Virus record (IMG/VR): IMGVR_UViG_3300046703_000335
Coordinates: 24,336-88,335 of that record
Length of the DNA: 64,000 bases
DNA from: a virus
Strand: one strand, 5' to 3'
The notes beneath the pieces are model-generated. The model searched no databases and had not been told where the DNA came from. It saw only the letters and a list, made by a program, of their open reading frames with translations. The position numbers were made by a program, and so were the translations under genes. The first letter of the stretch is position 1. Every line of letters begins with the position of its first letter. This document shows positions 3,120 through 61,908 of this stretch, piece after piece.

Positions 3120-3772
3120 ATGCTAAACCTAATCTTTCTTAATGTTTCTGACAGAGCGCTATTCTTTGTATTAAAAAAGGAATCACTATGAATTCGATGT
3201 CTAACCAGCACCATATCTATATTAAAAAAAGTCCAACCATCTTTAATTAATCTTATCCACAAATCATAATCCTCTACACCATCCCATGAGAAATCCCATG
3301 AAATATCTCTTCCTCTTCTATTAATCATTGATGAAGAGTTTATTATAGTATTTATATCTGAAAAGTTAGATTCAGAAATATCACCAGTGTACAACCTTGG
3401 GGTATCATCCGATTCCCCAAAATACTGACAATGTGTCCCTATGACATCATACCGGGCTGCATAAGCTATCTGTCTTTCTAATTTTTCTGGTAGCCAGACA
3501 TCATCAACGTCTAACAGACAAATAGAATCATATTTAGAAAAAAGTAAAAGCTTATTTAATGTTATAGATTTACCCTTAAACTCCGGGAACTCTCTGATAT
3601 GGATTTTATCTGAAGAATAGCTATTAGCTATTTTAAAAATTTCAGAATTTCCAGGGTGACCATTCACCCCTATAAGAAGTTCCCAGTCTATAAACGTCTG
3701 AGCTTTTATAGAAGATATACTCTCCTCAAGGAATTCTATACCATTATATATTGGCATTAATATCGAAACCAC
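3116..3772 (-). CDS. Family 2 glycosyltransferase
   Basis: VSILMPIYNGIEFLEESISSI..Q and LLDVDD motifs (GT-A, DxD). Confidence 0.65.
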   Translation of the reverse strand: MVSILMPIYNGIEFLEESISSIKAQTFIDWELLIGVNGHPGNSEIFKIANSYSSDKIHIREFPEFKGKSITLNKLLLFSKYDSICLLDVDDVWLPEKLERQIAYAARYDVIGTHCQYFGESDDTPRLYTGDISESNFSDINTIINSSSMINRRGRDISWDFSWDGVEDYDLWIRLIKDGWTFFNIDMVLVRHRIHSDSFFNTKNSALSETLRKIRFSI

Positions 3773-13424: not shown

Positions 13425-14222
13425 TTATAAATATTTGTCCAACCCTAAAATTGATTTTTTTTCTGATAAATCTTCTAATATTGGAACCTCTTCAACCCAT
13501 CGTTCAGTGTAACTTCGATCCTGTGATATAATTGGCATATCAAGATCAACTACCCACTTATTCCTGACAACACACCCAACCGGATAAGTAATCTTAAATG
13601 CTGATGTCCCTCTTTTATATGAAGTCTCTATATCATTCCAGTTGATACCCAATTGAAGCATTAACATATCCTGTTTTTGACTTCCATTTTTACCCATAAG
13701 TTGCTTATGTGAAAAATGTGCCATAGCCACTTGAGAGACTGAATTTTTTTCACAATCTCTTTCTCGCCAAATAAAATAGTTGGTAACTTCTTCCTTTGGG
13801 AGATTCCAGGCACGGGCGTCAAATATCGCAGGACCCTTTTTCTTGTATTGCTCTGGAAGATATGTCAAGCAAGCATGGTTAAACGCCGCAGTGCATATAG
13901 AAGCAGCCACGCTCTCAATCTTATTCGCCCTATTATCAAACCACGCCTCAGTACCTATACTTTGATAATCACACATTAATATGGATATCTCATCACTTTG
14001 ACAATATCCGAGTCTGGCACCCTCAATTTCACTACAGGTCTTTACCATAGCATAGTTCATGCACTTTTTTAGGTTACTATCAAACGGTCTAACTAAACCC
14101 CTTGTCCATGTATGAAATGCCTTTCCGTCAATTCTTAGCATAATGGGAATTCTGCGAACTAATAAACGAAATGCACGTTGCTCATAATCCTTCATGCGAT
14201 CCCCAAGAGAATCCTTACTCAT
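13425..14222 (-). CDS. Thg1-like protein (tRNA-His guanylyltransferase family, 3'-5' nucleotidyltransferase)
   Basis: N-terminus MKDYEQRAF..RIDGKAFHTW matches the Thg1/TLP signature (MKDYE .. R.DG.AFH). Confidence 0.7.
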   Translation of the reverse strand: MSKDSLGDRMKDYEQRAFRLLVRRIPIMLRIDGKAFHTWTRGLVRPFDSNLKKCMNYAMVKTCSEIEGARLGYCQSDEISILMCDYQSIGTEAWFDNRANKIESVAASICTAAFNHACLTYLPEQYKKKGPAIFDARAWNLPKEEVTNYFIWRERDCEKNSVSQVAMAHFSHKQLMGKNGSQKQDMLMLQLGINWNDIETSYKRGTSAFKITYPVGCVVRNKWVVDLDMPIISQDRSYTERWVEEVPILEDLSEKKSILGLDKYL

Positions 14223-19548: not shown

Positions 19549-20664
19549 TTAATTTTCTTCAAGAATTCTTTTTAATCGAGTAGAACACTCTACAGAATCC
19601 GGCAGGGTATTAAAGTTGGGACGAACTCTCCGGTGGATATTTTTCCATAGTTTAAGACTATTTCCCTTATGATAATACATAAGATCTGAGACAAGATCTG
19701 GATATCGCTCAGTTACCATAAAAAACAAAGTTTTATGGCTTATGTCCGCAGGAATATCTTTCATAACTTCCTCATAAGTTTCCTTAACCCTAATATAGTC
19801 ATTATGGTGGATATCGTATATCTGCCGATACAAGAGGTCTGTAAGCTCTCTAAACTCTTCGGGTACCTCTGCTATGAAACTACGGGGGATATCCGCTTTA
19901 TCGAAGTCCCAGGCACCCCAGAATGATAGTAGAGTCATATGTGATAGAATTCTATGAATTTTACAGTATTCTGATCCCTTAACCTTAATCTTAAGACCAT
20001 TGTGGAAAGTAATAACAAAACCCTCCTCAGTCGCCGGTAGAGTCTTACAATAAGCATATAACTCATCCAGGCTATTGAACTCTACAGCCTCTACCACAGT
20101 GGCTCCTATGCGCTTTCCTTCCTCTTTAAGGGAGGTGTAGGATATCTCTTCTCCGGTTTCATTATTGATGACACCTAAAAGTATCAAATCCTCTGTATCA
20201 CCATAGTCTATTACAATTTTATTTTCTGGATAGACCATCTCAAAAAGATATGTATGCCCTTTAAGCATTTCTGTTGACCTTATATGCTTCCGGAACCATA
20301 TAGTAGCCCACTGCGCCTGATCTGATAAGAAAGATCCCTTGGTCGCTATATAATCTTGACCTTCATATCTAAAGTAAATCGCTAAGCTACCGTCAATCTT
20401 CTTAAGGGAAATAAAAGGCTTCTTCGCCAAGTCACAAAGATCAATCTTACCCATAAGCTCGGAGGCATTAAAGAATTTCTTAAAGGAACGTGAAACCACC
20501 TCTCCAGTGATCCTATTAAATATGATACCCCGTGCAGCCATAGTGATATCATCCCAATGCCCGTCATATTGACATTCCCGTGAATAGCAAAAAAGAACAA
20601 GATCATTCCACTCAGTATGTCTGACATAAGGATGGTCATAAAATTTCTTAATATCAAAAGTCAT
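19549..20664 (-). CDS. ATP-dependent RNA ligase (Rnl-type KxDG nucleotidyltransferase)
   Basis: KKIDGSLAI motif I (KxDG). N-terminal segment and size resemble the T4 Rnl / PF09414 family. A separate NAD-dependent DNA ligase is present in this window. Confidence 0.5.
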   Translation of the reverse strand: MTFDIKKFYDHPYVRHTEWNDLVLFCYSRECQYDGHWDDITMAARGIIFNRITGEVVSRSFKKFFNASELMGKIDLCDLAKKPFISLKKIDGSLAIYFRYEGQDYIATKGSFLSDQAQWATIWFRKHIRSTEMLKGHTYLFEMVYPENKIVIDYGDTEDLILLGVINNETGEEISYTSLKEEGKRIGATVVEAVEFNSLDELYAYCKTLPATEEGFVITFHNGLKIKVKGSEYCKIHRILSHMTLLSFWGAWDFDKADIPRSFIAEVPEEFRELTDLLYRQIYDIHHNDYIRVKETYEEVMKDIPADISHKTLFFMVTERYPDLVSDLMYYHKGNSLKLWKNIHRRVRPNFNTLPDSVECSTRLKRILEEN

Positions 20665-27144: not shown

Positions 27145-27185
27145 AGTATATTATCTTTTATTTATATTATATGTTAATTTACAAA

Positions 27186-27586
27186 TGGAGGAGAGGGGAG
27201 TTGAACCCCTGTGTCAAGTATGATCCCTATTAATCTCTACATGCTTAGTTTAATTTGCACTACCCCTCTGTAAATATCAATTAAACAAAATTTTTAACAG
27301 AGTGCATTAAGTAATTTCGGTCCCCTTCTCTATTATGCTTTTCGGGTACCCTACTTCGTGATCTTTTAAGAGATCGGATCCCACGATTGTCCGATACTCT
27401 TTGCTACCTTTAATTAGGCAGCGATTGAGCTTGCAACACCTAAACTGATATTATCAGCAAAGGCGAGAGCAAACTTAACAGCATAATCTTTTGCAATTAT
27501 ACTTTAACGGATGATTTACGAGGCCAACCGTTATCCTCAACATGCAATTAATACTTCACCTACCTGATCGAAACCAGTACTCCCCC
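27186..27586 (-). ncRNA. ssrA: tmRNA (ssrA), about 401 nt, one-piece
   Basis: Minus-strand 5' end GGGGGAGTACTGGTTTCGATCAGG resembles the E. coli tmRNA 5' end. An internal CGGTTGGCCTCGTAAA block matches the PK1 region. The 3' end ..CACAGGGGTTCAACTCCCCTCTCCTCC-A forms a T-arm plus acceptor. The acceptor pairs 7/7 with the 5' GGGGGAG, including a G3-U70 pair and an A discriminator, which are alanine identity elements. Candidate tag ORF: GCA AAA GAT ... GCT GCC TAA. Confidence 0.8.
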
Positions 27587-29975: not shown

Positions 29976-30015
29976 CAATAAAAAAGAAAGGGGAAGACTT
30001 TTCCCGGTCTTCCCC
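29976..30015 (-). terminator. Rho-independent terminator
   Basis: Minus strand GGGGAAGAC-CGGGAAAA-GTCTTCCCC followed by TTTCTTTTTTATT. Confidence 0.7.
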
Positions 30016-30101
30016 CTCAAATTATATCTCACCCGAGAGTTGTAATCTCAGGATTAGATAGTGATGGTCAATAAATAATACCCTCGCCCTTTATAATAAG
30101 T

Positions 30102-30192
30102 CTCCCACTCTACCGCTGAGCTATAGACCCCCGAAGTTATCTATTACAAAATAACTTAGAGGGTCTAAATGGATTTGAACCACTGACAGGAG
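30102..30192 (-). tRNA. Candidate circularly permuted tRNA gene B. The 3' half (anticodon-stem 3' strand CTCCT, T-arm AGTGG-TTCAAAT-CCATT, acceptor TAGACCC) at 30160-30192 precedes the 5' half (GGGTCTA-TA-GCTC-AGCGGTA-GAGT-GGGAG) at 30102-30130.
   Basis: Acceptor strands pair 7/7 (GGGTCTA/TAGACCC). Anticodon-stem strands pair 5/5 (GGGAG/CTCCT). D-loop carries GG and the T-loop is TTCAAAT. The T-arm lies upstream of the D-arm on the coding strand, the reverse of a normal gene. The 29-nt linker contains a hairpin, AAGTTAT..ATAACTT. Confidence 0.5.
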
Positions 30193-30313
30193 TGTTTTAA
30201 GGCTACCTATTCTTTATTAACCACCTTCAATTTTGAATCTTGGACATTCAAAACACTAATCATCAACTTAAATCTGGTATGCAAAAAAATAAAAATAATC
30301 TTTTGCCTTTTAC

Positions 30314-30392
30314 AGAAGTACTCTACCAAACTGAGCTACCTTCTCCATATTTTTTAGGGGAGAAGGAGAGGAATCGAACCTCCGCGTCTTCT
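30314..30392 (-). tRNA. Candidate circularly permuted tRNA gene A. The 3' half (AGAAG-ACGC-GGAGG-TTCGATT-CCTCT-CCTTCTC-C) at 30359-30392 precedes the 5' half (GAGAAGG-TA-GCTC-AGTTTGGTA-GAGT-A-CTTCT) at 30314-30345. Linker is 13 nt.
   Basis: Acceptor pairs 7/7 (GAGAAGG/CCTTCTC). Anticodon stem pairs 5/5 (CTTCT/AGAAG). Canonical GTTCGATTCC T-arm and GCTCAGTTTGGTAGAG D-arm. No matching partner exists in the canonical gene order. Leader and trailer are complementary (AAAAG/CTTTT repeats) next to the anticodon stem. Confidence 0.55.
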
Positions 30393-30441
30393 GATATAGA
30401 AAAAGACAAAAGTGCTTTTAGGATAATTAACCTACTCGGGG

Positions 30442-35700: not shown

Positions 35701-36558
35701 TTATTGAACATTATTAAATCGATGCAACACACCCGTCTGTTGAGCTTCCCTAACCACAGTGATTAAGCTCTTCAAGTCAAACCTGTGATCATTTCCAGAT
35801 AAACAAATACCTGCGGCAATGACCATTCGCTTGTTATCTTTCGAAATATGGCTGGTGAACTCCTCACCATCCACCTTATATGTCACACTAAAGTGGTCAC
35901 TTCTTTCTACGAACCGAACAAACTCTCCCCCGGCATGTTCCACATCTTTTTTTAAGACATTTTCTTTCTTATCCTCCAAAAACCTTTTATCAAAGGTCGT
36001 TCGAAGAGAATAAGCCATTTTTTCCTCAAATGAGAGATTTGCAAACTTAATCTCACCAGGGTCCACTAACTTTTCCAAACTATCCCGAAGATATTCCGCT
36101 TTAGTAGGGTCATTCCCTGTATCTACACTCTCAAACCAGAAATTAGCACCGTCATAACGAACGATAACACGGTCAAAATTCATGACCGTATCATCAAATA
36201 ATAGCACCGGTATCAGCCCACGGAATGGCAACCCATATTTATTAGCCTTATCCGGGATAGCTAGGAATTCTTTGTCTCTTCTCAGAGTCAGAGTCACTCT
36301 TAGCCTACCAAGACGGCGTAAATAGAGCTCACGTTCAGTAAAGTCTGCATCACCGGTTATTTTAGCAGAAATAGAATTTAAAGGGCGGATTTTATACCAC
36401 CCAGGATCAACATTAGGAACTTTGAATGTATATACCAGCCCATCGATAGTAGTTACTACAGAGTTATTATAGAAAATAGGAGAAATGAACTCCAGATTTG
36501 TGATCTGTTGTTCTTTCCTTCCTAAATTACTAATAATATCAAGGACATTAATAGACAT
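35701..36558 (-). CDS. Hypothetical protein
   Basis: ORF only. Confidence 0.35.
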   Translation of the reverse strand: MSINVLDIISNLGRKEQQITNLEFISPIFYNNSVVTTIDGLVYTFKVPNVDPGWYKIRPLNSISAKITGDADFTERELYLRRLGRLRVTLTLRRDKEFLAIPDKANKYGLPFRGLIPVLLFDDTVMNFDRVIVRYDGANFWFESVDTGNDPTKAEYLRDSLEKLVDPGEIKFANLSFEEKMAYSLRTTFDKRFLEDKKENVLKKDVEHAGGEFVRFVERSDHFSVTYKVDGEEFTSHISKDNKRMVIAAGICLSGNDHRFDLKSLITVVREAQQTGVLHRFNNVQ

Positions 36559-36573
36559 ACAATCTCCCGAGTA

Positions 36574-38136
36574 TTACCTAAAAGATCCACGAGAAATCAA
36601 AGGCGTTTCCATGATCTCGAAAACCAGGTCAAGCTTAGATTTACGAGATAAAAGAGGGATCAATCCCGGTAATGCATAATAATCATTACCTTCAGGGGTA
36701 TAGATATCATATTCAATACCCGCCCTCTTCAAGTTACTAGAAAAGGTATTATCCGCAGGTCCTATATGAATGATCACCACATTTGGACGAACATTAAATG
36801 TCTTTGCATACTGTTCGTACACTGTAGTAAACATAGGACTAGCATTTTCACCCTCATCCGTTATCACCACAATAGTTTCCACACTCTTTTTCTTTAACAA
36901 CAAATAATTAAGTGCACAACCCATCGAAGTTGACCCTCCGGCACGTATGGGTCTAAATGCATTCTCCCAGTCGGTCAAAGAAGTTCCTTTTGCCTCAATC
37001 ACTGCTGGAGTTGTATCAAATGCTACCACAGTAAGTTCTGCTATTGTAGCACCAGAAATCAATGCTGCGGTATTCTTACCAACTTCAATTGCTTTATCCA
37101 TTGATCCGGACCGGTCAACAAATACAGCGGTTGATACTGAAATCTGACCACTCTTTTTGACCTGAGCATCTGCTACTTTATCCAATTGTGCTAAAACATC
37201 TACATCAAGGATACGACCAGTTTTAGCAGCTGTTTTGGACTTAAGTGTCGACACATTCTTTGACTTTTCAGCCTTTTTCAATTTTTCCTGAATAAGTGCT
37301 TTTGTAGCTTCATTAGCCATAGCACCCTTCTCTTCAAGAGAAGCCATGTTATTAATGACTTCCATAGAAGACATGCTATTGATAAGAGCCACGAGTATAG
37401 TTGGAGTAATTTTATCGATCAACCCAATTGCGATCGTATATGGAATTTTATTTTCCACAATCATCTTTGCTGCATCAGCCGGTTCTGCTTCTGATATCTT
37501 TTTCAAGATAGTCAGCTTAGAGTCTTCTGGTATTTTCCCATCAAAAAGAATAGCTTGAGCTTGTGCTGAAGGTTTTACTTTAATTTTCTTGTAAAGGCTC
37601 TTCAAATCAGCTCGATTCTTCAAAGCGACTGTATCAAATCGATCCTTATCCGCTTCCAACCAACGCAAATAATTTTTGATTTCAGTTTCAAAAGAGGAAG
37701 TGGTATTTCTTTTCATACCTACAGTCTTCTCTTCGATCCGAACTTCATCGATTGACTTCTTATCGATCTTGATCTTTTTACCTGTCTTTATCCGAATCTT
37801 AACCTTTTTACCTCGGATAAAACCAAGTATTTTATTCTTCATGAAAACCGCATGTTTTCTGAAAAGAGCAAGACCGACTTCACGATTATCGATAAAGGGA
37901 TCCGTAATAAGCATGGCTGCAAAGATCTCGTTATGATCCCTGATCTCGCCCTTAGCGAGATACCAGCAAGCAAGATGCGCATAGAACAACGGATCATTAT
38001 CCCGAATATCCTCATGGATCTTTTTTAAAACGTCCGTATCACGATGAGGACAAGTCATGAATGAATTGAGCACCCTAACACGGATATCCCCTTCAACTAC
38101 AGGAGCTGCAGGGGGAATAACTCTACGAGTTGTCAT
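36574..38136 (-). CDS. Ro60/Rsr-like protein (TROVE domain plus C-terminal vWA domain)
   Basis: N-terminal DNDPLFYAHLACW resembles the conserved Ro60/Rsr block NDPALFALALC. C-terminal vWA MIDAS motif VFVDRSGSM. Length of 520 aa is typical of Ro60. Confidence 0.6.
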   Translation of the reverse strand: MTTRRVIPPAAPVVEGDIRVRVLNSFMTCPHRDTDVLKKIHEDIRDNDPLFYAHLACWYLAKGEIRDHNEIFAAMLITDPFIDNREVGLALFRKHAVFMKNKILGFIRGKKVKIRIKTGKKIKIDKKSIDEVRIEEKTVGMKRNTTSSFETEIKNYLRWLEADKDRFDTVALKNRADLKSLYKKIKVKPSAQAQAILFDGKIPEDSKLTILKKISEAEPADAAKMIVENKIPYTIAIGLIDKITPTILVALINSMSSMEVINNMASLEEKGAMANEATKALIQEKLKKAEKSKNVSTLKSKTAAKTGRILDVDVLAQLDKVADAQVKKSGQISVSTAVFVDRSGSMDKAIEVGKNTAALISGATIAELTVVAFDTTPAVIEAKGTSLTDWENAFRPIRAGGSTSMGCALNYLLLKKKSVETIVVITDEGENASPMFTTVYEQYAKTFNVRPNVVIIHIGPADNTFSSNLKRAGIEYDIYTPEGNDYYALPGLIPLLSRKSKLDLVFEIMETPLISRGSFR

Positions 38137-38194
38137 ATCTTATCTCCAATCTTATATAGTATCTTATCTGTTATGGCACTCTATATAAAGTACC

Positions 38195-38461
38195 TTAGCT
38201 TTTACCAAACGGAGTATTAGCCCTTACTGTTATGTTCCCGTTTGAGCTAATTTCTATAGCATGGTCCCTGAATTCATCCATGCCTACATCATATTTCTGG
38301 GCTAATGCCATACGAATTTGATCATGATTAACAGATGATGGTGTTATCACTGTTCCGATAGTGATACCCAATGCTTCAAATCGATCTTGTGAAAAAAGAT
38401 CGCTAAACTTAAGATCATCCTGTCTTCCTCGAAACATTACATGGATATCCTGCATACACAC
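38195..38461 (-). CDS. Hypothetical small protein
   Basis: ORF only. Confidence 0.3.
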   Translation of the reverse strand: MCMQDIHVMFRGRQDDLKFSDLFSQDRFEALGITIGTVITPSSVNHDQIRMALAQKYDVGMDEFRDHAIEISSNGNITVRANTPFGKS

Positions 38462-38510
38462 CTCCTATAGATGTTGTTAATATAATGTTGTGTCAAAATT
38501 TTTTAAACTT

Positions 38511-38822
38511 TTATTTACAAATTTTTAATCGCCATTGAACAAATATATTAAGTTTTGAATTATTGATATATAATGCCACATTATCAAATTCAGTTTCATA
38601 GAGAAATTCATGTATTTTATTACCATCACCATAAAAATTCTTAAGTAACCATCTTATTAACAATTCTTCTATATCCCATCCTTTAAGCTCTCTGAACTCC
38701 AATATCTTAATTGCTTTATGCACTACTTCTTCATAAAACTCAATAGAGCCCGTAGCACCCTTACGACCTTTAAGAATATTATGTAACACTAAACAATCAG
38801 TTATAAGATAAGTATTCTTCAT
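38511..38822 (-). CDS. Hypothetical small protein
   Basis: ORF only. Confidence 0.3.
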   Translation of the reverse strand: MKNTYLITDCLVLHNILKGRKGATGSIEFYEEVVHKAIKILEFRELKGWDIEELLIRWLLKNFYGDGNKIHEFLYETEFDNVALYINNSKLNIFVQWRLKICK

Positions 38823-38852
38823 ACTATAACTAATATACTTTTATAAAACGAG

Positions 38853-38902
38853 AATACAAAGTAAAAAAGAAACCCCGATAGAACTTTTTGCTCTACCGGG
38901 GT
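38853..38902. terminator. Bidirectional rho-independent terminator
   Basis: GAAACCCCG-16 nt-CGGGGTTTC perfect 9-bp stem, flanked by an A-run and a T-run. Confidence 0.65.
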
Positions 38903-39100
38903 TTCTTTTATGAAGATCGTAAGAAAAATCAATAAGAAGTAGAGCACCTTATGGGTGGAGCAGTTGGGTTACTTTGGGATACCCACTTATGGTATCCAAG
39001 AAACTTTTTTAATGCTGATGTTTTGTAACTTTTTCTCATATCCGTGCTATCCTAAAATATTTAAAAAATTACGCAGAAGTTAGGGATGCTAATTTTTTGG

Positions 39101-39173
39101 CTTCTAATGATGGACTTGAACCATCGACGCATTTCTTATAAGGAAATTGCCCTACCAACTGGGCTAATTAGAA
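39101..39173 (-). tRNA. tRNA, anticodon UAU (Ile, AUA codon). CCA encoded at 39098-39100.
   Basis: Minus strand TTCTAAT-TA-GCCC-AGTTGGTA-GGGC-A-ATTTC-CTTATAA-GAAAT-GCGTC-GATGG-TTCAAGT-CCATC-ATTAGAA-G-CCA. All stems pair perfectly. Confidence 0.75.
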
Positions 39174-39536
39174 AATGTAAGCAACCAAAGTAATTGCGTA
39201 ATTTTTATTATTGTTTGTTTCAATCCGCGCTTTTCAGCGACTATATAAAAATGAGCTAATATAAGAATCTCTACCTAAGTCGTTCGTACTATATGATGAC
39301 CAGATACCCATACTGGGCAGTGATCATCAAGTTTTTTTTACCCAAAAAAAATGTAAGTCCAAACTATAATGGTAAAAATTCTATTAATTCGTTTGTTCGT
39401 TTCAATCCACGCTTTTCAGCGACTGTACAAAAGTAAAAAAGTTGAAACTACAGAAGTCGTGCATGCTAGTCTGAGGGATTTGAACCCCCTACCTATTGAT
39501 TAGAAGTCAATTGCTCTACCAAATGAGCTAATGTAA
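39174..39536 (-). repeat. Degenerate tandem array of ~175-bp units, each starting (minus strand) with CTTACATT
   Basis: AATGTAAG on the plus strand at 39174-39181, 39346-39353 and 39529-39536. Conserved AGTCGCTGAAAAGCGYGGATTGAAAC segments at about 39214-39247 and 39394-39430, each carrying a CGCT-GAAA-AGCG tetraloop hairpin. Confidence 0.45.
39464..39536 (-). tRNA. tRNA-Arg(UCU)-like element whose 5' acceptor strand does not pair. Positions 1-8 are replaced by the CTTACATT unit motif. Possible pseudogene or repair substrate.
   Basis: Good D-arm GCTC-ATTTGGTA-GAGC, anticodon arm ATTGA-CTTCTAA-TCAAT, T-arm GGGGG-TTCAAAT-CCCTC. The 3' acceptor AGACTAG has no complementary 5' strand. Confidence 0.45.
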
Positions 39537-39679
39537 GCCTTCACTGTAATTGTAGTTTCAACCAAGTACCCTATTCATCAGGGTTACATCTTAATAATAC
39601 TAAATAATTTTATATTATGCAAATACTATTTTAAAATGAAATCCAATGGATATATAATATAGATCGTATTAAAATATTT

Positions 39680-40060
39680 TTATTCATCCTCGGATATTTT
39701 AATACTCGGGAATCTACTCCTTACTGCGCTATACACTTTTGCCTTGAGTTCCTTTAAAGAACCATCATACCATACAGGAACTGAAGAATATTGATTAACT
39801 CTGGATATGGCATTTCTAGCATGGGCAGCATCTGGAATAGGAAAATGATCTTTACCATCTTTTACTTTTGAGCTCTTATCAGAAAATATAGGAGCAGGTC
39901 GATTTGATCCTGCTGGAATATCTCCCGCCATCTTCTCGAGAGTATTTGAAACAACATCAATAGATTCAGCTTCACTGAATAACCCGTTTGCCTCAACACT
40001 ACTTGCTACATTATCAAGGCTCTCTATAATAGAAGCCAATCTTTCTTTAGGTGATGACAT
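39680..40060 (-). CDS. Hypothetical protein
   Basis: ORF only. Confidence 0.3.
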   Translation of the reverse strand: MSSPKERLASIIESLDNVASSVEANGLFSEAESIDVVSNTLEKMAGDIPAGSNRPAPIFSDKSSKVKDGKDHFPIPDAAHARNAISRVNQYSSVPVWYDGSLKELKAKVYSAVRSRFPSIKISEDE

Positions 40061-60702: not shown

Positions 60703-61908
60703 CTATGAAACTGCTCTTAGATCTGATGTCTCCAAAAGTCTTACACTTTCTCCACAGGCTTGAATTCCTCTCGAACTGAGAGTATCTATTCCGAAATCTT
60801 CTATATTTATTGATGCATTTAAATCTCTGTCTTCAATATGACCACATTCACAAATATAAATTCTATCCTCTAATTTTAAATCCTCCTTTATATTTCCACA
60901 TACCCTACAAAGTTTAGAACTTGGATAAAATCTATCTACGTCTATGATTTCACCACCATACCATGCAGTCTTATACAATGATTGACGCTTTATCTCATTG
61001 AATGAAGCATCAGCTAAAGCACCTGCAAGTTTATGGTTTTTCACCATACCTAAGACATTTAAATCCTCTAATGCAATGTATCTCGGCTTGGTTTTCGTCA
61101 AGATACTTGTCATCTTATGGATTGCATCTTTTCGTTGATTACTTATTCTACTATAAATTTTCTGTATTTTTAACTTAATCTTATATCTATTATTTGAGGA
61201 CCTTTTAGTTTTTTTATCAAATTTCTTTCTTGCTAAATTCTTTTGTGCATGAGCTAATCTTTTTTTTGATTTTCTTAAATACTTGTTATTTTTAAAAACT
61301 TGACCATTAGAACATGTAGCTAAATTTTTTATACCGACATCAATGCCCAAGACAGTTTCTAATTGATTTGTTATTTCAGGTATCTCTACCTCACAATTAA
61401 CAGAAACGAACCACTTGCCTGTTATTTTAGAAATAGTCAAAGAGTTATACTTAACATTTTCAGTAGGTATATACCCTTTTTCCTTTAACTTAACTATACC
61501 AATTTTAGCTAATTTAATTTTATCGATAGTAACATGCAAATTACTACTGTCTAAGTGGTAGGTAGGTATACTTTTATGCTTAGATTTAAATTTGGGAAAG
61601 CCAATCTTTTTTCCTTTTTTAAGTCCTCGAAAAAAGTTTTTAAAAGCTTTATCTAAATCTATCAAAGCTAATTGAGGAGCACACTTAGAAACTTCGTACA
61701 TCCAAGGAAATTCTTTTTTTTTGCGAGCACATAATGATTTATGTTGGTCTATAGCTGATAAAGATCTCTTTTCACTCTCGTATAGAGATATACGCTCCGA
61801 AAGACCTAAATTATAAGCAAAACGAGCTACACCGGCACTCTTCTCGAAAAGAGTACGTTGTTTGTTATTTGGTTTTATCTCAGTTTTATATGATCTATTT
61901 ATTATCAT
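60703..61908 (-). CDS. tnpB: IS200/IS605-family TnpB (OrfB) RNA-guided nuclease-like transposase accessory protein
   Basis: N-terminal YKTEIKPNNKQRTLFEKSAGVARFAYN. RuvC-I GIDVGIKNLA, RuvC-II ALEDLN, zinc finger CRVCGN .. CECGH, RuvC-III EDRDLNASINI. All catalytic residues intact. Confidence 0.8.
   Translation of the reverse strand: MIINRSYKTEIKPNNKQRTLFEKSAGVARFAYNLGLSERISLYESEKRSLSAIDQHKSLCARKKKEFPWMYEVSKCAPQLALIDLDKAFKNFFRGLKKGKKIGFPKFKSKHKSIPTYHLDSSNLHVTIDKIKLAKIGIVKLKEKGYIPTENVKYNSLTISKITGKWFVSVNCEVEIPEITNQLETVLGIDVGIKNLATCSNGQVFKNNKYLRKSKKRLAHAQKNLARKKFDKKTKRSSNNRYKIKLKIQKIYSRISNQRKDAIHKMTSILTKTKPRYIALEDLNVLGMVKNHKLAGALADASFNEIKRQSLYKTAWYGGEIIDVDRFYPSSKLCRVCGNIKEDLKLEDRIYICECGHIEDRDLNASINIEDFGIDTLSSRGIQACGESVRLLETSDLRAVS

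What the first reader, a model, noticed from the sequence alone, without database searches (positions are those of the whole stretch)
36574..39600. Ro60/Rsr-like (TROVE-vWA) protein next to an array of tRNA and tRNA-like RNAs (candidate Y-RNA-like partners)
The 520-aa ORF carries the conserved Ro60 N-terminal block (DNDPLFYAHLAC versus NDPALFALALC) and a C-terminal vWA MIDAS motif. Immediately upstream in the transcription direction lies an 0.8-kb non-coding region with three parts. One is a canonical tRNA(UAU). Another is a tRNA-Arg-like element with an unpaired acceptor. The remainder is structured hairpins, including GGATACC-N7-GGTATCC. Bacterial Ro60 orthologs bind tRNA-like Y RNAs encoded adjacent to rsr, as with Salmonella YrlA next to rsr and rtcB, and with mycobacteriophage Y RNAs. 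This arrangement looks like a viral version of that module.
Basis: partly seen in the sequence, partly recalled or inferred. Interest (0 to 1): 0.7.

Follow-up and report, generated by a model that had tools for sequence, protein, structure and literature searches.

The report
Divergent phage Ro60 with tRNA-mimic RNAs
A huge-phage genome encodes a very diverged copy of the ring-shaped RNA-binding protein Ro60 next to its tRNA genes and several non-functional tRNA look-alikes, so the known "Ro60 plus tRNA-like Y RNA" partnership seems to exist here in a new viral form.

Summary
The 520-aa ORF (36574-38136, minus strand) is a real but very diverged Ro60 homologue. Pfam TROVE does not detect it. 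Its AlphaFold model matches only Ro60 structures over the full length, and a widened family profile hits solved Ro60 proteins at E=2e-18 to 4e-8. The family is large and sits on contigs of up to 200-600 kb.

They are separated from the gene by a strong terminator and two small conserved ORFs. They are three cassettes sharing one covariation-supported scaffold. The cargoes are a tRNA-like body without an acceptor stem, a non-tRNA hairpin RNA, and a true tRNA-Ile(UAU). Two type I-C CRISPR-repeat-like solitary units lie between them. None matches the Rfam Y RNA models.

Better candidates lie elsewhere. Two tandem YrlA-type RNAs (T arm, closed acceptor hairpin, D arm) sit at 30063-30412. In related phages such RNAs sit inside the same scaffold just upstream of the Ro60-like gene.

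Binding is untested, and the known Ro60-binding motif is absent. I rate it a new variant of a known kind, with moderate to high interest.

The parts
36574..38136 (-). Ro60-like protein gene (520 aa): N-terminal HEAT-type helical repeats with a beta-hairpin insertion (residues 110-139), and a C-terminal vWA domain with a complete MIDAS motif
   Evidence: AF2 model has pLDDT 82 and pTM 0.73. Foldseek PDB top 13 hits are all Ro60/Rsr/TROVE, full length. Profile A7 against PDB: 9nen 2e-18, 1yvp 2e-13, 9l5y/9kop 2.9e-13, 2nvo 4e-8. Pfam vWA_Ro60 hits 13 of 55 homologues. Pfam TROVE, PHROGs and NCBIfam are all negative.
35701..36558 (-). Conserved partner gene p285 (285 aa), probably made of OB/S1-like beta-barrels and a long helix. 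Function unknown.
38195..38461 (-). Small conserved ORF p88, directly upstream of the Ro60-like gene
   Evidence: tblastn finds it upstream of the Ro60-like gene, usually directly adjacent, in 12 related loci, down to loci whose Ro60-like protein is about 55% identical. It has no family hit.
38511..38822 (-). Small ORF p103, the first gene after the terminator
   Evidence: Conserved in L001, L004, L005, L008 and L012. It has no family hit.
38865..38909 (-). Strong intrinsic terminator that closes the RNA island. Its 5' arm and loop (GGTAGAGC) are complementary to a conserved upstream box (GGTGCTCTAC, about 38938-38947).
   Evidence: Terminator scan gives 20 pairs followed by a T-run. It is conserved, with compensatory changes, in five loci. 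The upstream-box pairing covaries in L008 (GTTCTATC/GATAGAAC), as read from the sequences.
38860..39062 (-). Terminal structured RNA or leader of about 200 nt between cassette 3 and p103. It contains the GGATACC-N7-GGTATCC hairpin (38977-38997).
   Evidence: Conserved blocks are seen in W, L001, L004, L005 and L008. No Rfam family matches beyond terminator look-alikes.
39064..39206 (-). Cassette 3 (class B): scaffold around a canonical tRNA-Ile(UAU) (39098-39173) with encoded CCA. Outer stem AAAAATTACGCA/TGCGTAATTTTT.
   Evidence: ARAGORN and Rfam tRNA at 62.8 bits. Scaffold model R1 scores 75.1 bits.
39217..39241 (-). Solitary type I-C CRISPR-repeat-like unit R2 (GTCGCTGAAAAGCGCGGATTGAAAC)
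   Evidence: Direct repeat with R1: 40 nt, 90% identical, 182 nt apart. Weak Rfam CRISPR-DR9 hit. The motif GTCGC-N-GCGYGGATTGAAAC is that of true 32-33-nt repeats in about 66-nt-period arrays, and of many solitary mini-hairpin units, in IMG/VR.
39264..39382 (-). Cassette 2 (class C): scaffold around a non-tRNA cargo, which is a U7/A7 hairpin plus a long irregular hairpin (GATGATCACTGCCCAGTATGGGTATCTGGTCATCAT)
   Evidence: R1 scores 42.9 bits. MFE z-score is -4.15. The scaffold is conserved with covariation in six class-C units.
39399..39423 (-). Solitary type I-C CRISPR-repeat-like unit R1 (GTCGCTGAAAAGCGTGGATTGAAAC). Its TTGAAA could also serve as a -35 box for cassette 2.
   Evidence: for the repeat. 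The promoter-like match TTGAAA-16-TAGAAT is, where the promoter count was not above shuffled sequence.
39441..39562 (-). Cassette 1 (class A): scaffold around a tRNA-like body (39472-39531) with D arm, anticodon arm (UCU) and T arm, but no acceptor pairing beyond 3 bp. Closed by the 12-bp stem GTTGAAACTACA/TGTAGTTTCAAC. This gives a Yrn1-like topology.
   Evidence: Rfam tRNA scores 51.3 bits over positions 7-64 only. R1 scores 141.5 bits. MFE. Orthologues in L001, L004, L005, L008 and L010 keep the arms while their anticodon loops differ (UCU, UUU, GUU, GUU, GAU, UUU; some lack U33).
39555..39587 (-). Degenerate CRISPR-repeat-like unit R0 (GTAACCCTGATGAATAGGGTACTTGGTTGAAAC). Its 3' end forms the 5' strand of the cassette-1 outer stem.
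   Evidence: Read. The orthologous positions in L001 (GTCACATCTGATGAAGGTGCGATGATTGAAAT) and L005 (GTCGCACTGAAAGAAGCGGTGCGTAGATTGGAAC) carry full-length I-C-like repeats.
30300..30412 (-). YrlA-type RNA #1. It has a 12-bp closing stem, an asymmetric internal loop and a 6-bp stem. These lead into a T arm (GGAGG/UUCGAUU/CCUCU), an 8-bp closed acceptor-like hairpin and a D arm (UAGCUCAGUUUGGUAGAGU).
   Evidence: Rfam YrlA (RF02553) scores 29.5 bits over the full model 1-114. E is 0.027 for the whole window and 1e-4 locally; the gathering score is 69. MFE. Orthologues in L001 and L005 show 11 compensatory pairs. R2 scores 50.4 bits, but this RNA was a training sequence.
30063..30225 (-). YrlA-type RNA #2. 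It has a long closing stem and two further helices. These lead into a T arm (AGUGG/UUCAAAU/CCAUU), a 17-bp closed acceptor-like hairpin and a D arm (UAGCUCAGCGGUAGAGU). A terminator follows at about 29980-30015.
   Evidence: MFE z-score is -4.25. The consensus structure with the L001 and L005 orthologues has 52 pairs, 11 of them compensatory. R2 scores 45.7 bits, but this RNA was a training sequence.

Best explanation
The ORF encodes a highly diverged Ro60 (TROVE-vWA) ring protein. It belongs to a large subfamily carried on contigs of up to 200-600 kb, sizes typical of huge phages. It forms a fixed two-gene module with a beta-barrel (OB/S1-like) protein, p285. The module sits at the downstream end of a tRNA and non-coding-RNA island.

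Shown: the fold, the homology, the conserved gene linkage, the RNA structures and their covariation.

Inferred: the protein, probably together with p285, forms ribonucleoproteins with phage-encoded tRNA-mimic RNAs that cannot be aminoacylated. These are the two YrlA-type RNAs at 30063-30412 and, less certainly, the stem-closed acceptor-less tRNA-like RNA and the hairpin RNA of the island at 39264-39562. This would parallel bacterial Rsr with YrlA/Yrn1 and Thermus phage phiLo Ro60 with Yrl1/Yrl2. In those systems the RNA gates the ring and tethers it to a host 3'-5' exoribonuclease such as PNPase.

In relatives the YrlA-type domains sit inside the same scaffold that flanks the true tRNAs. The scaffold consists of an outer stem, a conserved 6x6 internal loop (AUUACN/RACUUN), a 9-bp helix and the sequence UACAU. 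It is therefore the most likely docking surface. The complex would then act on the phage's own tRNA-like transcripts during infection, in quality control, 3'-end handling or protection. The same window also encodes an Rnl1-type RNA ligase, a Thg1-like enzyme and a tmRNA.
For: Fold and homology.

Family size and contig sizes: 480 hits on contigs up to 470 kb. 1408 clusters at 50% identity. The only INPHARED hit is a 595-kb uncultured phage.

Conserved Ro60-like plus p285 pair: present in all loci down to 26-36% identity.

tRNA or tRNA-like units within 4 kb upstream: present in 19 of 19 loci.

Scaffold: 40 units in 18 loci, with 93% of cells paired against 41-44% when the structure is slid. The outer stem has double changes in 12 of 12 pairs. 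The covariation score is 0.79 against 0.09-0.14.

YrlA-type RNAs: window 30294-30406 scores 29.5 bits at E=0.027 window-wide. Relatives score 31.3, 26.3 and 24.7 bits, and all three hits lie inside scaffold units upstream of the gene on the right strand. The MFE folds show the order T arm, closed acceptor, D arm. Orthologues show covariation. Model R2 finds further non-training hits upstream of the gene in L022, L006 and L014.

Precedent: bacterial and phage Y RNAs lie next to Ro60 and mimic tRNA, and Yrn1 has its ends at the acceptor position (PMC4201824). Phage phiLo Ro60 binds upstream-encoded Yrls and host PNPase (PMC12135203).

RNA-repair context in the window: Rnl1 at 19549-20664, Thg1-like at 13425-14222, tmRNA at 27183-27586.
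Against: No binding data exist. All YrlA hits are far below the Rfam gathering score (25-31 bits against 69). The GNCGAAN0-1G / CGAA motif that marks Ro60-binding stems is absent from the two YrlA-type RNAs. In the class-A cassette it appears only loosely (AG[C/U]GAAGG), and even that is lost in L004, L010 and more distant loci.

In this window the YrlA-type RNAs are 6.2 kb and about ten genes away from the Ro60-like gene. The island is separated from the gene by a strong terminator.

The same scaffold flanks ordinary tRNAs, so it could be a plain processing signal. Linkage among related phages may partly reflect inherited gene order. Pfam TROVE itself never hits.
Confidence: 0.55

Rival explanations
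1. The island at 39064-39562 is simply a phage tRNA operon. On this view the shared scaffold is a processing signal, built as lower stem, internal loop and upper stem. It would resemble phage T7 RNase III sites or the stems that flank rRNAs, and it would let each RNA be cut out of a polycistronic precursor. The acceptor-less tRNA-like and hairpin cargoes would be decayed or repurposed tRNA genes. The Ro60-like protein would not bind the scaffold. Its RNA partners, if any, would be only the YrlA-type RNAs, or host or misfolded RNAs.
For: The same scaffold surrounds bona fide tRNAs that carry an encoded CCA. UACAU lies immediately 5' of the mature tRNA end. A strong terminator separates the island from the protein genes. 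No Rfam Y RNA or YrlA hit falls inside 38800-39720. The resemblance to T7 RNase III signals rests on my own knowledge and was not tested.
Against: The class A body is kept across at least six loci with compensatory changes in all arms, while its anticodon loop drifts and sometimes lacks U33. A decaying pseudogene would not behave this way. In relatives, YrlA-type non-tRNA cargoes occupy the same scaffold next to the Ro60-like gene. The internal-loop sequences are conserved across 36-86% protein identity, which suggests a specific reader.
Confidence: 0.28
2. The non-tRNA elements are anti-defence decoys. The GTCGC...GGATTGAAAC units would be RNA anti-CRISPRs (Racr) against a host type I-C system. 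The tRNA-like bodies with drifting anticodon loops would be decoys or replacements aimed at host anticodon nucleases. The Ro60-like protein would only stabilise them or would be unrelated.
For: The units share both ends with true I-C repeats. Such solitary mini-hairpin units are common in viral contigs. RacrIC1 and viral solitary repeat units are documented (PMC10651486). In L001 and L005 a full-length I-C-like repeat runs into the outer stem of cassette 1. Orthologous tRNAs change their anticodons between close relatives. No type I-C cas genes are present in the window.
Against: The units are sporadic: present in W, L001 and L005, absent in L004 and L008. The cassettes exist without them. The hairpin of R1 and R2 is only about 3 bp. 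The host and its CRISPR type are unknown. Elsewhere in IMG/VR, solitary units are not near tRNAs (0 of 113). This idea does not explain the invariant Ro60-like plus p285 linkage.
Confidence: 0.1
3. The protein is not an RNA-binding Ro60 equivalent. It would be a vWA/MIDAS protein with a helical domain, used for something else such as protein-protein adhesion, a chelatase-like complex or a virion or assembly role. Its position next to RNA genes would be incidental.
For: Sequence identity to Ro60 is only 10-14% in the structural alignments. Pfam sees only vWA-type domains. The RNA-contacting residues of Ro60 were not checked.
Against: Full-length fold matches go only to Ro60 proteins. Plain vWA domains come next, at E around 1e-4, and cover only the C-terminal third. 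The profile alignment to phiLo Ro60 spans profile positions 23-394 against chain residues 60-432, and the alignment to Xenopus Ro60 spans 102-420 against 142-504. Both extend well beyond the vWA domain. Linkage to tRNA-mimic RNAs is conserved.
Confidence: 0.05

Closest known systems
Bacterial Rsr (Ro60) with YrlA/YrlB RNAs (Salmonella, Mycobacterium; Chen et al. 2014, PMC4201824)
   Same: A TROVE-vWA ring fold. The RNAs are encoded near the gene on the same strand. They combine a closing 5'/3' stem with a tRNA-like domain in the order T arm, closed acceptor-like hairpin, D arm. This applies to window 30063-30412 and to the island units in L010, L012, L021, L022, L006 and L014. More than one such RNA occurs per locus.
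   Different: The protein is undetectable with Pfam TROVE. The RNAs reach only 25-31 bits against the 69-bit gathering score of RF02553. The GNCGAAN0-1G motif is absent. No rtcB/rtcA genes are adjacent; instead there is an invariant partner of unknown function, p285. Some mimics also keep an anticodon arm (L012, L014). In this window the YrlA-type RNAs lie 6.2 kb from the gene.
Deinococcus radiodurans Rsr with Yrn1 (RYPER complex with PNPase)
   Same: The class-A RNA (39441-39562) has the Yrn1-type layout: its ends emerge where the acceptor stem would be, followed by D-like, anticodon-like and T arms. The proposed mechanism, tethering an exoribonuclease, is borrowed from this system.
   Different: The class-A RNA is far more tRNA-like, scoring 51 bits on the tRNA model. 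It carries a conserved scaffold that Yrn1 does not have. No PNPase link was tested.
Phage Ro60 systems: Thermus phage phiLo Ro60 with Yrl1/Yrl2 (PMC12135203; PDB 9KOP, 9L5Y); mycobacteriophages, CcrColossus, Bacillus phage G (Chen 2014); TROVE in some jumbo phages (PMC7824862)
   Same: A phage-encoded Ro60 with candidate Y-like RNAs upstream of the gene. phiLo Ro60 is among the best matches both by structure and by profile (E 2.9e-13, near full length).
   Different: A different and much larger subfamily found on contigs of up to 200-600 kb. Its only hit in INPHARED is one unannotated 595-kb genome. The RNAs are embedded in a tRNA-island scaffold. The CGAA motif is not conserved.
Viral solitary CRISPR repeat units / RNA anti-CRISPRs (Racr; Camara-Wilpert et al. 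2023, PMC10651486)
   Same: R1, R2 and R0 share the 5' GTCGC and the 3' GCGYGGATTGAAAC of type I-C repeats. They are solitary and have no cas genes nearby.
   Different: They have a minimal (about 3-bp) hairpin. They sit between tRNA-type cassettes. R0 is fused to the outer stem of a structured RNA. Anti-CRISPR activity is untested.

Membership tests
Ro60 / TROVE-vWA protein family | Helical-repeat (HEAT-like) toroid closed by a C-terminal vWA domain | tested here: met
   The AF2 model (pLDDT 82, pTM 0.73) aligns over 528-576 columns to 2nvo, 9kop, 9nfa, 1yvp, 9nen, 2i91, 9l5y and 1yvr. E values are 1.5e-10 to 1.9e-8 and TM scores 0.52-0.65. No other fold matches over the full length. This rests on a prediction, not a solved structure.
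Ro60 / TROVE-vWA protein family | Significant match to the Pfam TROVE domain (PF05731) | tested here: not met
   The query has no TROVE hit at E<=0.1. None of 55 family members has one at E<=0.01. No precomputed TROVE domain appears among 120 listed homologues.
Ro60 / TROVE-vWA protein family | Sequence-profile homology to experimentally characterised Ro60 proteins, extending beyond the vWA domain | tested here: met
   Profile A7 against PDB: human Ro60 2e-18 (profile 166-420 against chain 228-504), Xenopus 2e-13 (102-420 against 142-504), phiLo Ro60 2.9e-13 (23-394 against 60-432), D. radiodurans Rsr 4e-8. The narrower profile A1 gave only E=0.19. Pfam vWA_Ro60 (PF25045) hits 13 of 55 members, best 5.4e-8.
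Ro60 / TROVE-vWA protein family | MIDAS motif (DxSxS...T...D) in the vWA domain | tested here: met
   D341, S343, S345 and D427 are invariant, and T403 is at least 90% conserved, across homologues of 27-86% identity.
Ro60 / TROVE-vWA protein family | Binds Y RNAs on the outer surface and single-stranded RNA ends in the central channel | not testable with these tools
   This needs EMSA, CLIP or a structure. Conservation of the RNA-contact residues was not examined.
YrlA-type Y RNA (Rfam RF02553) | Reaches the Rfam gathering score (69 bits) | tested here: not met
The best hit in the window is 29.5 bits, at 30294-30406. Relatives score 24.7-31.3 bits.
YrlA-type Y RNA (Rfam RF02553) | tRNA-like domain in the order T arm, closed acceptor-like stem-loop, D arm, held by a stem formed by the 5' and 3' ends | tested here: met
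   Met for 30300-30412 and 30063-30225, with compensatory changes in the L001 and L005 orthologues. Also met for the island units of L010, L012 and L021. Not met by the three RNAs at 39064-39562.
YrlA-type Y RNA (Rfam RF02553) | Conserved GNCGAAN0-1G (CGAA) motif on the 5' strand of the Ro60-binding stem | tested here: not met
   The model's CGAAUG positions align to UUUCUAUA in RNA #1. RNA #2 has no CGAA in its 5' strand. The class-A cassette has AGUGAAGG, and AGCGAAGG in L001, but this is not kept in L004, L010 and beyond.
YrlA-type Y RNA (Rfam RF02553) | Encoded close to a Ro60 gene | tested here: met
   In this window the distance is 6.2 kb downstream on the same strand. In L006, L010, L012, L014 and L021 it is 0.4-0.9 kb upstream of the gene, and in L022 about 2 kb.
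Canonical tRNA | Full cloverleaf with a 7-bp acceptor stem (plus a 3' CCA, encoded or added) | tested here: met
   Met for 39098-39173 (tRNA-Ile UAU; ARAGORN, Rfam 62.8 bits over model 1-71, CCA encoded). Not met for 39472-39531: the match covers model positions 7-64 only, just 3 of 7 acceptor pairs can form, there is no CCA, and ARAGORN makes no call.
Type I-C solitary repeat unit / Racr | Sequence of a CRISPR repeat of a defined subtype, occurring singly and without cas genes | tested here: met
   GTCGC-N6-GCG[T/C]GGATTGAAAC matches both ends of 32-33-nt repeats found in about 66-nt-period arrays in IMG/VR. It also matches 25-27-nt solitary mini-hairpin variants. The two copies are 182 nt apart. 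No type I-C cas genes are in the window. Calling this repeat type I-C rests on my knowledge of I-C repeats.
Type I-C solitary repeat unit / Racr | Inhibits the cognate CRISPR-Cas system by binding Cas proteins | not testable with these tools
   The host and its CRISPR type are unknown, and no assay was possible.

The most novel reading that the evidence does not exclude
The conserved scaffold is a dedicated docking module for the Ro60-like/p285 pair. It consists of an outer stem, an AUUACN/RACUUN internal loop, a 9-bp helix with conserved purine-purine mismatches, and UACAU. In these phages every RNA of the island would then be made as a Ro60-bound particle. That includes true pre-tRNAs, acceptor-less and circularly permuted tRNA mimics, and hairpin RNAs. 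Ro60 would act as a built-in pre-tRNA chaperone, quality-control factor or 3'-end processing factor, rather than only as a Y-RNA-regulated surveillance ring. The interleaved type I-C repeat mimics would let the same transcripts also soak up, or be cut by, host Cas5d.
Probability: 0.2. Interest if true: 0.8.

Novelty: new variant of a known kind. Interest (0 to 1): 0.6.

Why it matters
What Ro60 does with its tRNA-like Y RNAs is still poorly understood, and so is why those RNAs mimic tRNA. Here a large Ro60 subfamily that standard domain models miss is tied to tRNA genes. It comprises about 1400 clusters at 50% identity and sits on contigs of up to 200-600 kb. It is also tied to several kinds of non-chargeable tRNA mimics that share one scaffold with the real tRNAs. 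That arrangement links Ro60 directly to tRNA biogenesis or protection during infection, which makes the question testable. It also supplies many natural sequence variants for mapping the RNA-protein interface. Finally, it adds a previously unannotated conserved RNA motif, and candidate RNA anti-CRISPRs, to the inventory of huge-phage genomes.

Tried and rejected
1. Single-sequence searches of the protein gave no Ro60 link. These were Pfam, PHROGs, NCBIfam and PDB phmmer. The close-homologue profile A1 gave only E=0.19. The link appeared only with the AF2 model and the widened profile.

2. A 15-bit YrlA hit in L005 reflects T-arm similarity only.

3. I first read the GTCGC...ATTGAAAC elements as a possible CRISPR-like array with structured spacers, or as nothing more than a -35 box. 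Alignment of the inter-cassette spacers shows they are discrete insertions. L005 has both the TTGAGTTT box and the element. Their spacing of 182 nt is not array-like.

4. I considered a hammerhead ribozyme because of CUGAUGA...GAAA in R0. I rejected it because no stem II hairpin lies between the core boxes (sequence).

5. The tmRNA flanks have no scaffold.

6. A reverse-association test used the 16-mer GGCWTACATTAGCTCA in IMG/VR. It returned seven hits. Two are contigs already held, and five are chance matches with no RNA-model hit, so the test was uninformative.

7. Solitary repeat units elsewhere in viral contigs are not near tRNAs (0 of 113).

9. R2 hits in L019, L143 and L004 are probably artefacts of tandem tRNAs, where the T arm of one tRNA and the D arm of the next are read as one domain. 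I did not count them.

10. The sigma-70 promoter scan found no more matches than shuffled sequence.

Full report
**1. What is at the coordinates**

On the minus strand, a 520-aa ORF occupies 36574-38136. Upstream in the direction of transcription come, in order:
- an 88-aa ORF (38195-38461);
- a 103-aa ORF (38511-38822);
- a 20-bp intrinsic terminator (38865-38909);
- a non-coding stretch reaching to 39679.

ARAGORN and Rfam find a canonical tRNA-Ile(UAU) at 39098-39173 (62.8 bits, CCA encoded). Rfam alone finds a second tRNA match at 39472-39531. That match scores 51.3 bits and covers only model positions 7-64, so it lacks an acceptor stem. The GGATACC-N7-GGTATCC hairpin is at 38977-38997.

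The RNA region is not immediately adjacent to the ORF. Two ORFs conserved in related loci and a terminator lie between them.

**2. The protein**

Standard tools do not recognise it as Ro60.
- Pfam gives only a sub-threshold VWA_2 hit (22 bits) and no TROVE hit.
- PHROGs, NCBIfam and a single-sequence PDB search give nothing.
- A profile of 45 close homologues hit only the entry named "TROVE domain-containing protein" (9l5y/9kop), at E=0.19.

Two further lines settle the question.
- An AlphaFold2 model (pLDDT 82, pTM 0.73) shows an N-terminal helical-repeat region, a beta-hairpin insertion and a C-terminal vWA domain. Its top 13 Foldseek matches in the PDB are all Ro60 proteins aligned over their full length. 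These are D. radiodurans Rsr, human and Xenopus Ro60, and Thermus phage phiLo Ro60, at E 1.5e-10 to 1.9e-8 and TM 0.52-0.65. Ordinary vWA domains come next, at E around 1e-4, and cover only the C-terminal third.
- An exhaustive profile search found 1408 cluster representatives. A profile including members of 27-42% identity (A7) hits human Ro60 at 2e-18, Xenopus Ro60 at 2e-13, phiLo Ro60 at 2.9e-13 (nearly full length) and Rsr at 4e-8. Pfam vWA_Ro60 hits 13 of 55 members.

The MIDAS residues D341, S343, S345 and D427 are invariant, and T403 is at least 90% conserved.

I conclude that this is a genuine but very diverged Ro60 homologue. It fails the formal Pfam-TROVE test.

**3. Who carries it**

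Homologues sit on metagenomic contigs of up to 470 kb. The only hit among 50,697 deposited phage genomes is an unannotated 595-kb uncultured phage, LR756511.1, at 42% identity.

The window itself looks like a large phage genome. Nearly all ORFs are on one strand. It encodes:
- a family A DNA polymerase;
- an NAD-dependent DNA ligase;
- DnaB and SNF2 helicases;
- glycosyltransferases;
- a tmRNA;
- an Rnl1-type RNA ligase (19549-20664);
- a Thg1-like enzyme (13425-14222);
- a TnpB.

**4. Conserved neighbourhood**

tblastn of the window's proteins against 18 related loci shows three things.
- The 285-aa protein (35701-36558) follows the Ro60-like gene in every locus that has downstream sequence, down to 26% identity.
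- The 88-aa ORF lies upstream of it, usually directly adjacent, down to loci whose Ro60-like protein is about 55% identical.
- Other neighbours are not conserved at that depth.

**5. The RNA island is built from cassettes**

Reading the minus strand and comparing it with orthologous loci shows three paralogous units in the window. Each unit has the same parts in the same order:
- an outer stem of 12 bp or more, with a different sequence in each unit;
- a conserved 6x6 internal loop (AUUACN on the 5' side, RACUUN on the 3' side);
- a 9-bp inner helix ending in GCN/NGC, with conserved A.G and G.A mismatches in class A;
- the sequence UACAU;
- the cargo.

The cargoes are:
- an acceptor-less tRNA-like body (class A, 39441-39562);
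- a two-hairpin non-tRNA RNA (class C, 39264-39382);
- the true tRNA-Ile (class B, 39064-39206).

A covariance model built from six class-A units finds 40 full-length units at E<1e-5 in 18 non-redundant loci, including the 595-kb phage. On that alignment:
- 93% of cells form standard pairs, against 41-44% when the partners are slid;
- all 12 outer-stem pairs and 8 of the 9 inner-helix pairs show changes on both sides;
- the covariation score is 0.79 against 0.09-0.14.

The alignment is fitted to the model, so the absolute numbers are flattering. The contrast with the slid controls and the diversity of pair types are nonetheless strong. In the window, the model finds these three units and nothing else.

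**6. Class A behaves like a structural RNA, not a decoding tRNA**

Its orthologues keep the D, anticodon and T stems through compensatory changes. Their anticodon loops read UCU, UUU, GUU, GUU, GAU and UUU, and some lack U33. Only 3 of the 7 acceptor pairs can form, and there is no CCA. The 5' and 3' ends are locked in the scaffold.

This is the topology described for D. radiodurans Yrn1 (PMC4201824). The 5' strand carries AG[C/U]GAAGG, which resembles GNCGAAN0-1G. The resemblance is loose, and it is lost in L004, L010 and more distant loci. I give it little weight.

**7. YrlA-type RNAs**

A permissive Rfam scan of the whole window gave one unexpected hit. YrlA (RF02553) matches 30294-30406(-) at 29.5 bits over the full model, with E=0.027 for the whole window. 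The hit lies in a 550-nt intergenic gap downstream of a DUF7873 gene.

The alignment and the MFE fold of this RNA show:
- a 12-bp closing stem;
- an asymmetric internal loop;
- a 6-bp stem;
- a T arm;
- an 8-bp closed acceptor-like hairpin;
- a D arm.

A second RNA of the same design, with a 17-bp closed hairpin, follows at 30063-30225. Both are conserved at the same position in L001 and L005, with 11 compensatory pairs each.

In relatives, YrlA hits of 31.3, 26.3 and 24.7 bits fall in L021, L012 and L010. Each lies inside a scaffold unit of the island, 0.5-0.9 kb upstream of the Ro60-like gene on the same strand. Each folds in the order T arm, closed acceptor, D arm.

A small model of that core (R2) finds further non-training examples upstream of the gene in L022, L006 and L014. 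I discount its hits in tandem-tRNA arrays, following the caveat in Chen et al..

Every individual YrlA score is well below the gathering threshold, and the CGAA motif is missing. The case rests on three things: recurrence, position and strand, and the independently predicted architecture.

**8. CRISPR-repeat-like units**

Between the cassettes lie two copies of GTCGCTGAAAAGCG[T/C]GGATTGAAAC, at 39399-39423 and 39217-39241. A degenerate third copy (39555-39587) has its 3' end in the outer stem of cassette 1. L001 and L005 carry full-length versions at that third position.

The pattern GTCGC-N4-24-GCGYGGATTGAAAC occurs in more than 120 IMG/VR contigs. Some are true arrays of 32-33-nt repeats with a period of about 66 nt. 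Many are solitary units, including 25-27-nt mini-hairpin forms. This fits the solitary repeat units and RNA anti-CRISPRs described by Camara-Wilpert et al., which include a type I-C example.

In other viral contigs these units are not near tRNAs. No type I-C cas genes are in the window. Their function here is untested.

**9. Interpretation**

Shown:
- Ro60 fold and homology;
- an invariant Ro60-like plus p285 gene pair;
- constant placement downstream of a tRNA and non-coding-RNA island;
- a covariation-supported scaffold shared by tRNAs and non-chargeable tRNA mimics;
- YrlA-type RNAs in the same genomes.

Inferred: the protein forms RNPs with these mimics, as Rsr does with YrlA/Yrn1 and phiLo Ro60 does with Yrl1/Yrl2. 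The scaffold may be the docking site. That would draw the phage's pre-tRNAs into the same pathway.

The main rival is that the scaffold is a nuclease processing signal and the protein binds only the YrlA-type RNAs, or other RNAs altogether. Anti-defence decoy functions are possible and are not exclusive.

**10. Verdict**

It needs correcting on three points.
- The evidence for TROVE comes from structure and profiles, not from a domain-model hit.
- One of the named RNAs is an ordinary tRNA.

Phage Ro60 and Y-like RNA modules are already known. They have been described in mycobacteriophages, CcrColossus, phage G and phiLo, and TROVE has been noted in some jumbo phages (PMC7824862). This is therefore a new variant of a known kind. 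It adds a Ro60 clade that Pfam cannot see, a new conserved RNA scaffold, permuted and acceptor-less tRNA mimics, and interleaved CRISPR-repeat mimics.

Noticed in passing
window 27183-27586 (-): Phage-encoded tmRNA (Rfam 133 bits; tag peptide AKDYAVKFALAFADNISLGVASSIAA). Its flanks lack the tRNA-cassette scaffold. In relatives L006 and L007 a tmRNA also lies near the Ro60-like gene; in L006 it sits inside the island.
   Followed up: partly
window 19549-20664 (-) and 13425-14222 (-): A T4 Rnl1-type RNA ligase (PF09511, 1.9e-21) and a Thg1-like tRNA 5'-end repair enzyme (PF04446, 6e-29), on the same strand 16-23 kb downstream of the Ro60-like gene. This suggests a tRNA-repair toolkit in this phage.
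   Followed up: partly
window 39098-39173 versus L001 8967-9041, L008 2955-3026 and L004 8872-8946: Clearly orthologous tRNA bodies carry different anticodons in close relatives: UAU (Ile) here, UAC (Val) in L001, GCA (Cys) in L008, and an aberrant loop in L004. They share the same acceptor and T arms and the same G73-CCA end. This looks like anticodon switching, or like relaxed decoding constraints.
   Followed up: partly
window 38865-38947 (-): The conserved box GGTGCTCTAC lies about 35 nt upstream of the terminator. It is complementary to the terminator's 5' arm and loop (GGTAGAGC). The pairing covaries in L008 (GTTCTATC/GATAGAAC). It may be a pseudoknot or an antiterminator controlling read-through from the RNA island into the p103-p88-Ro60-like genes. 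No Rfam family matches.
   Followed up: partly
L012 3012-3157 and L014 about 3550-3650: Scaffolded RNAs that are circularly permuted tRNA look-alikes: T arm, closed acceptor hairpin, D arm, then an intact anticodon arm. The ends emerge at the variable-loop position. This permutation differs from the one described for YrlA.
   Followed up: partly
window 60703-61908 (-); L012 2109-2294: A TnpB/Cas12f-like protein (OrfB_IS605 plus TNB; PADLOC Cas12f models at 1.6e-69) is in the window. A HEARO (IscB-type omega) RNA at 90 bits lies inside the RNA island of relative L012. Mobile RNA-guided nuclease elements seem to frequent these regions.
   Followed up: no
IMG/VR loci L023-L142: Many viral contigs carry solitary minimal versions of the type I-C repeat with a UUCG tetraloop. 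GTCGCACTTCGGTGCGTGGATTGAAAC occurs 18 times and GTCGCCTTCGGGCGTGGATTGAAAC 4 times. They look like a family of streamlined candidate I-C RNA anti-CRISPRs.
   Followed up: partly
homologues P0088 and P0207: NCBI copies of both the Ro60-like protein and p285 are labelled 'MAG: Candidatus Nanoarchaeia archaeon'. The same proteins sit on phage-like contigs of 39 kb (P0088) and 424 kb (P0207). A phage contig was probably binned into an archaeal MAG.
   Followed up: no
window ORF set A6: One window protein matches a PADLOC 'Csx1 (found elsewhere)' model at 2e-42. Others match SNF2/ZorD/DpdE-type helicase models and E1-E2 (ThiF) models. I did not determine which ORF gives the Csx1-like hit.
   Followed up: no
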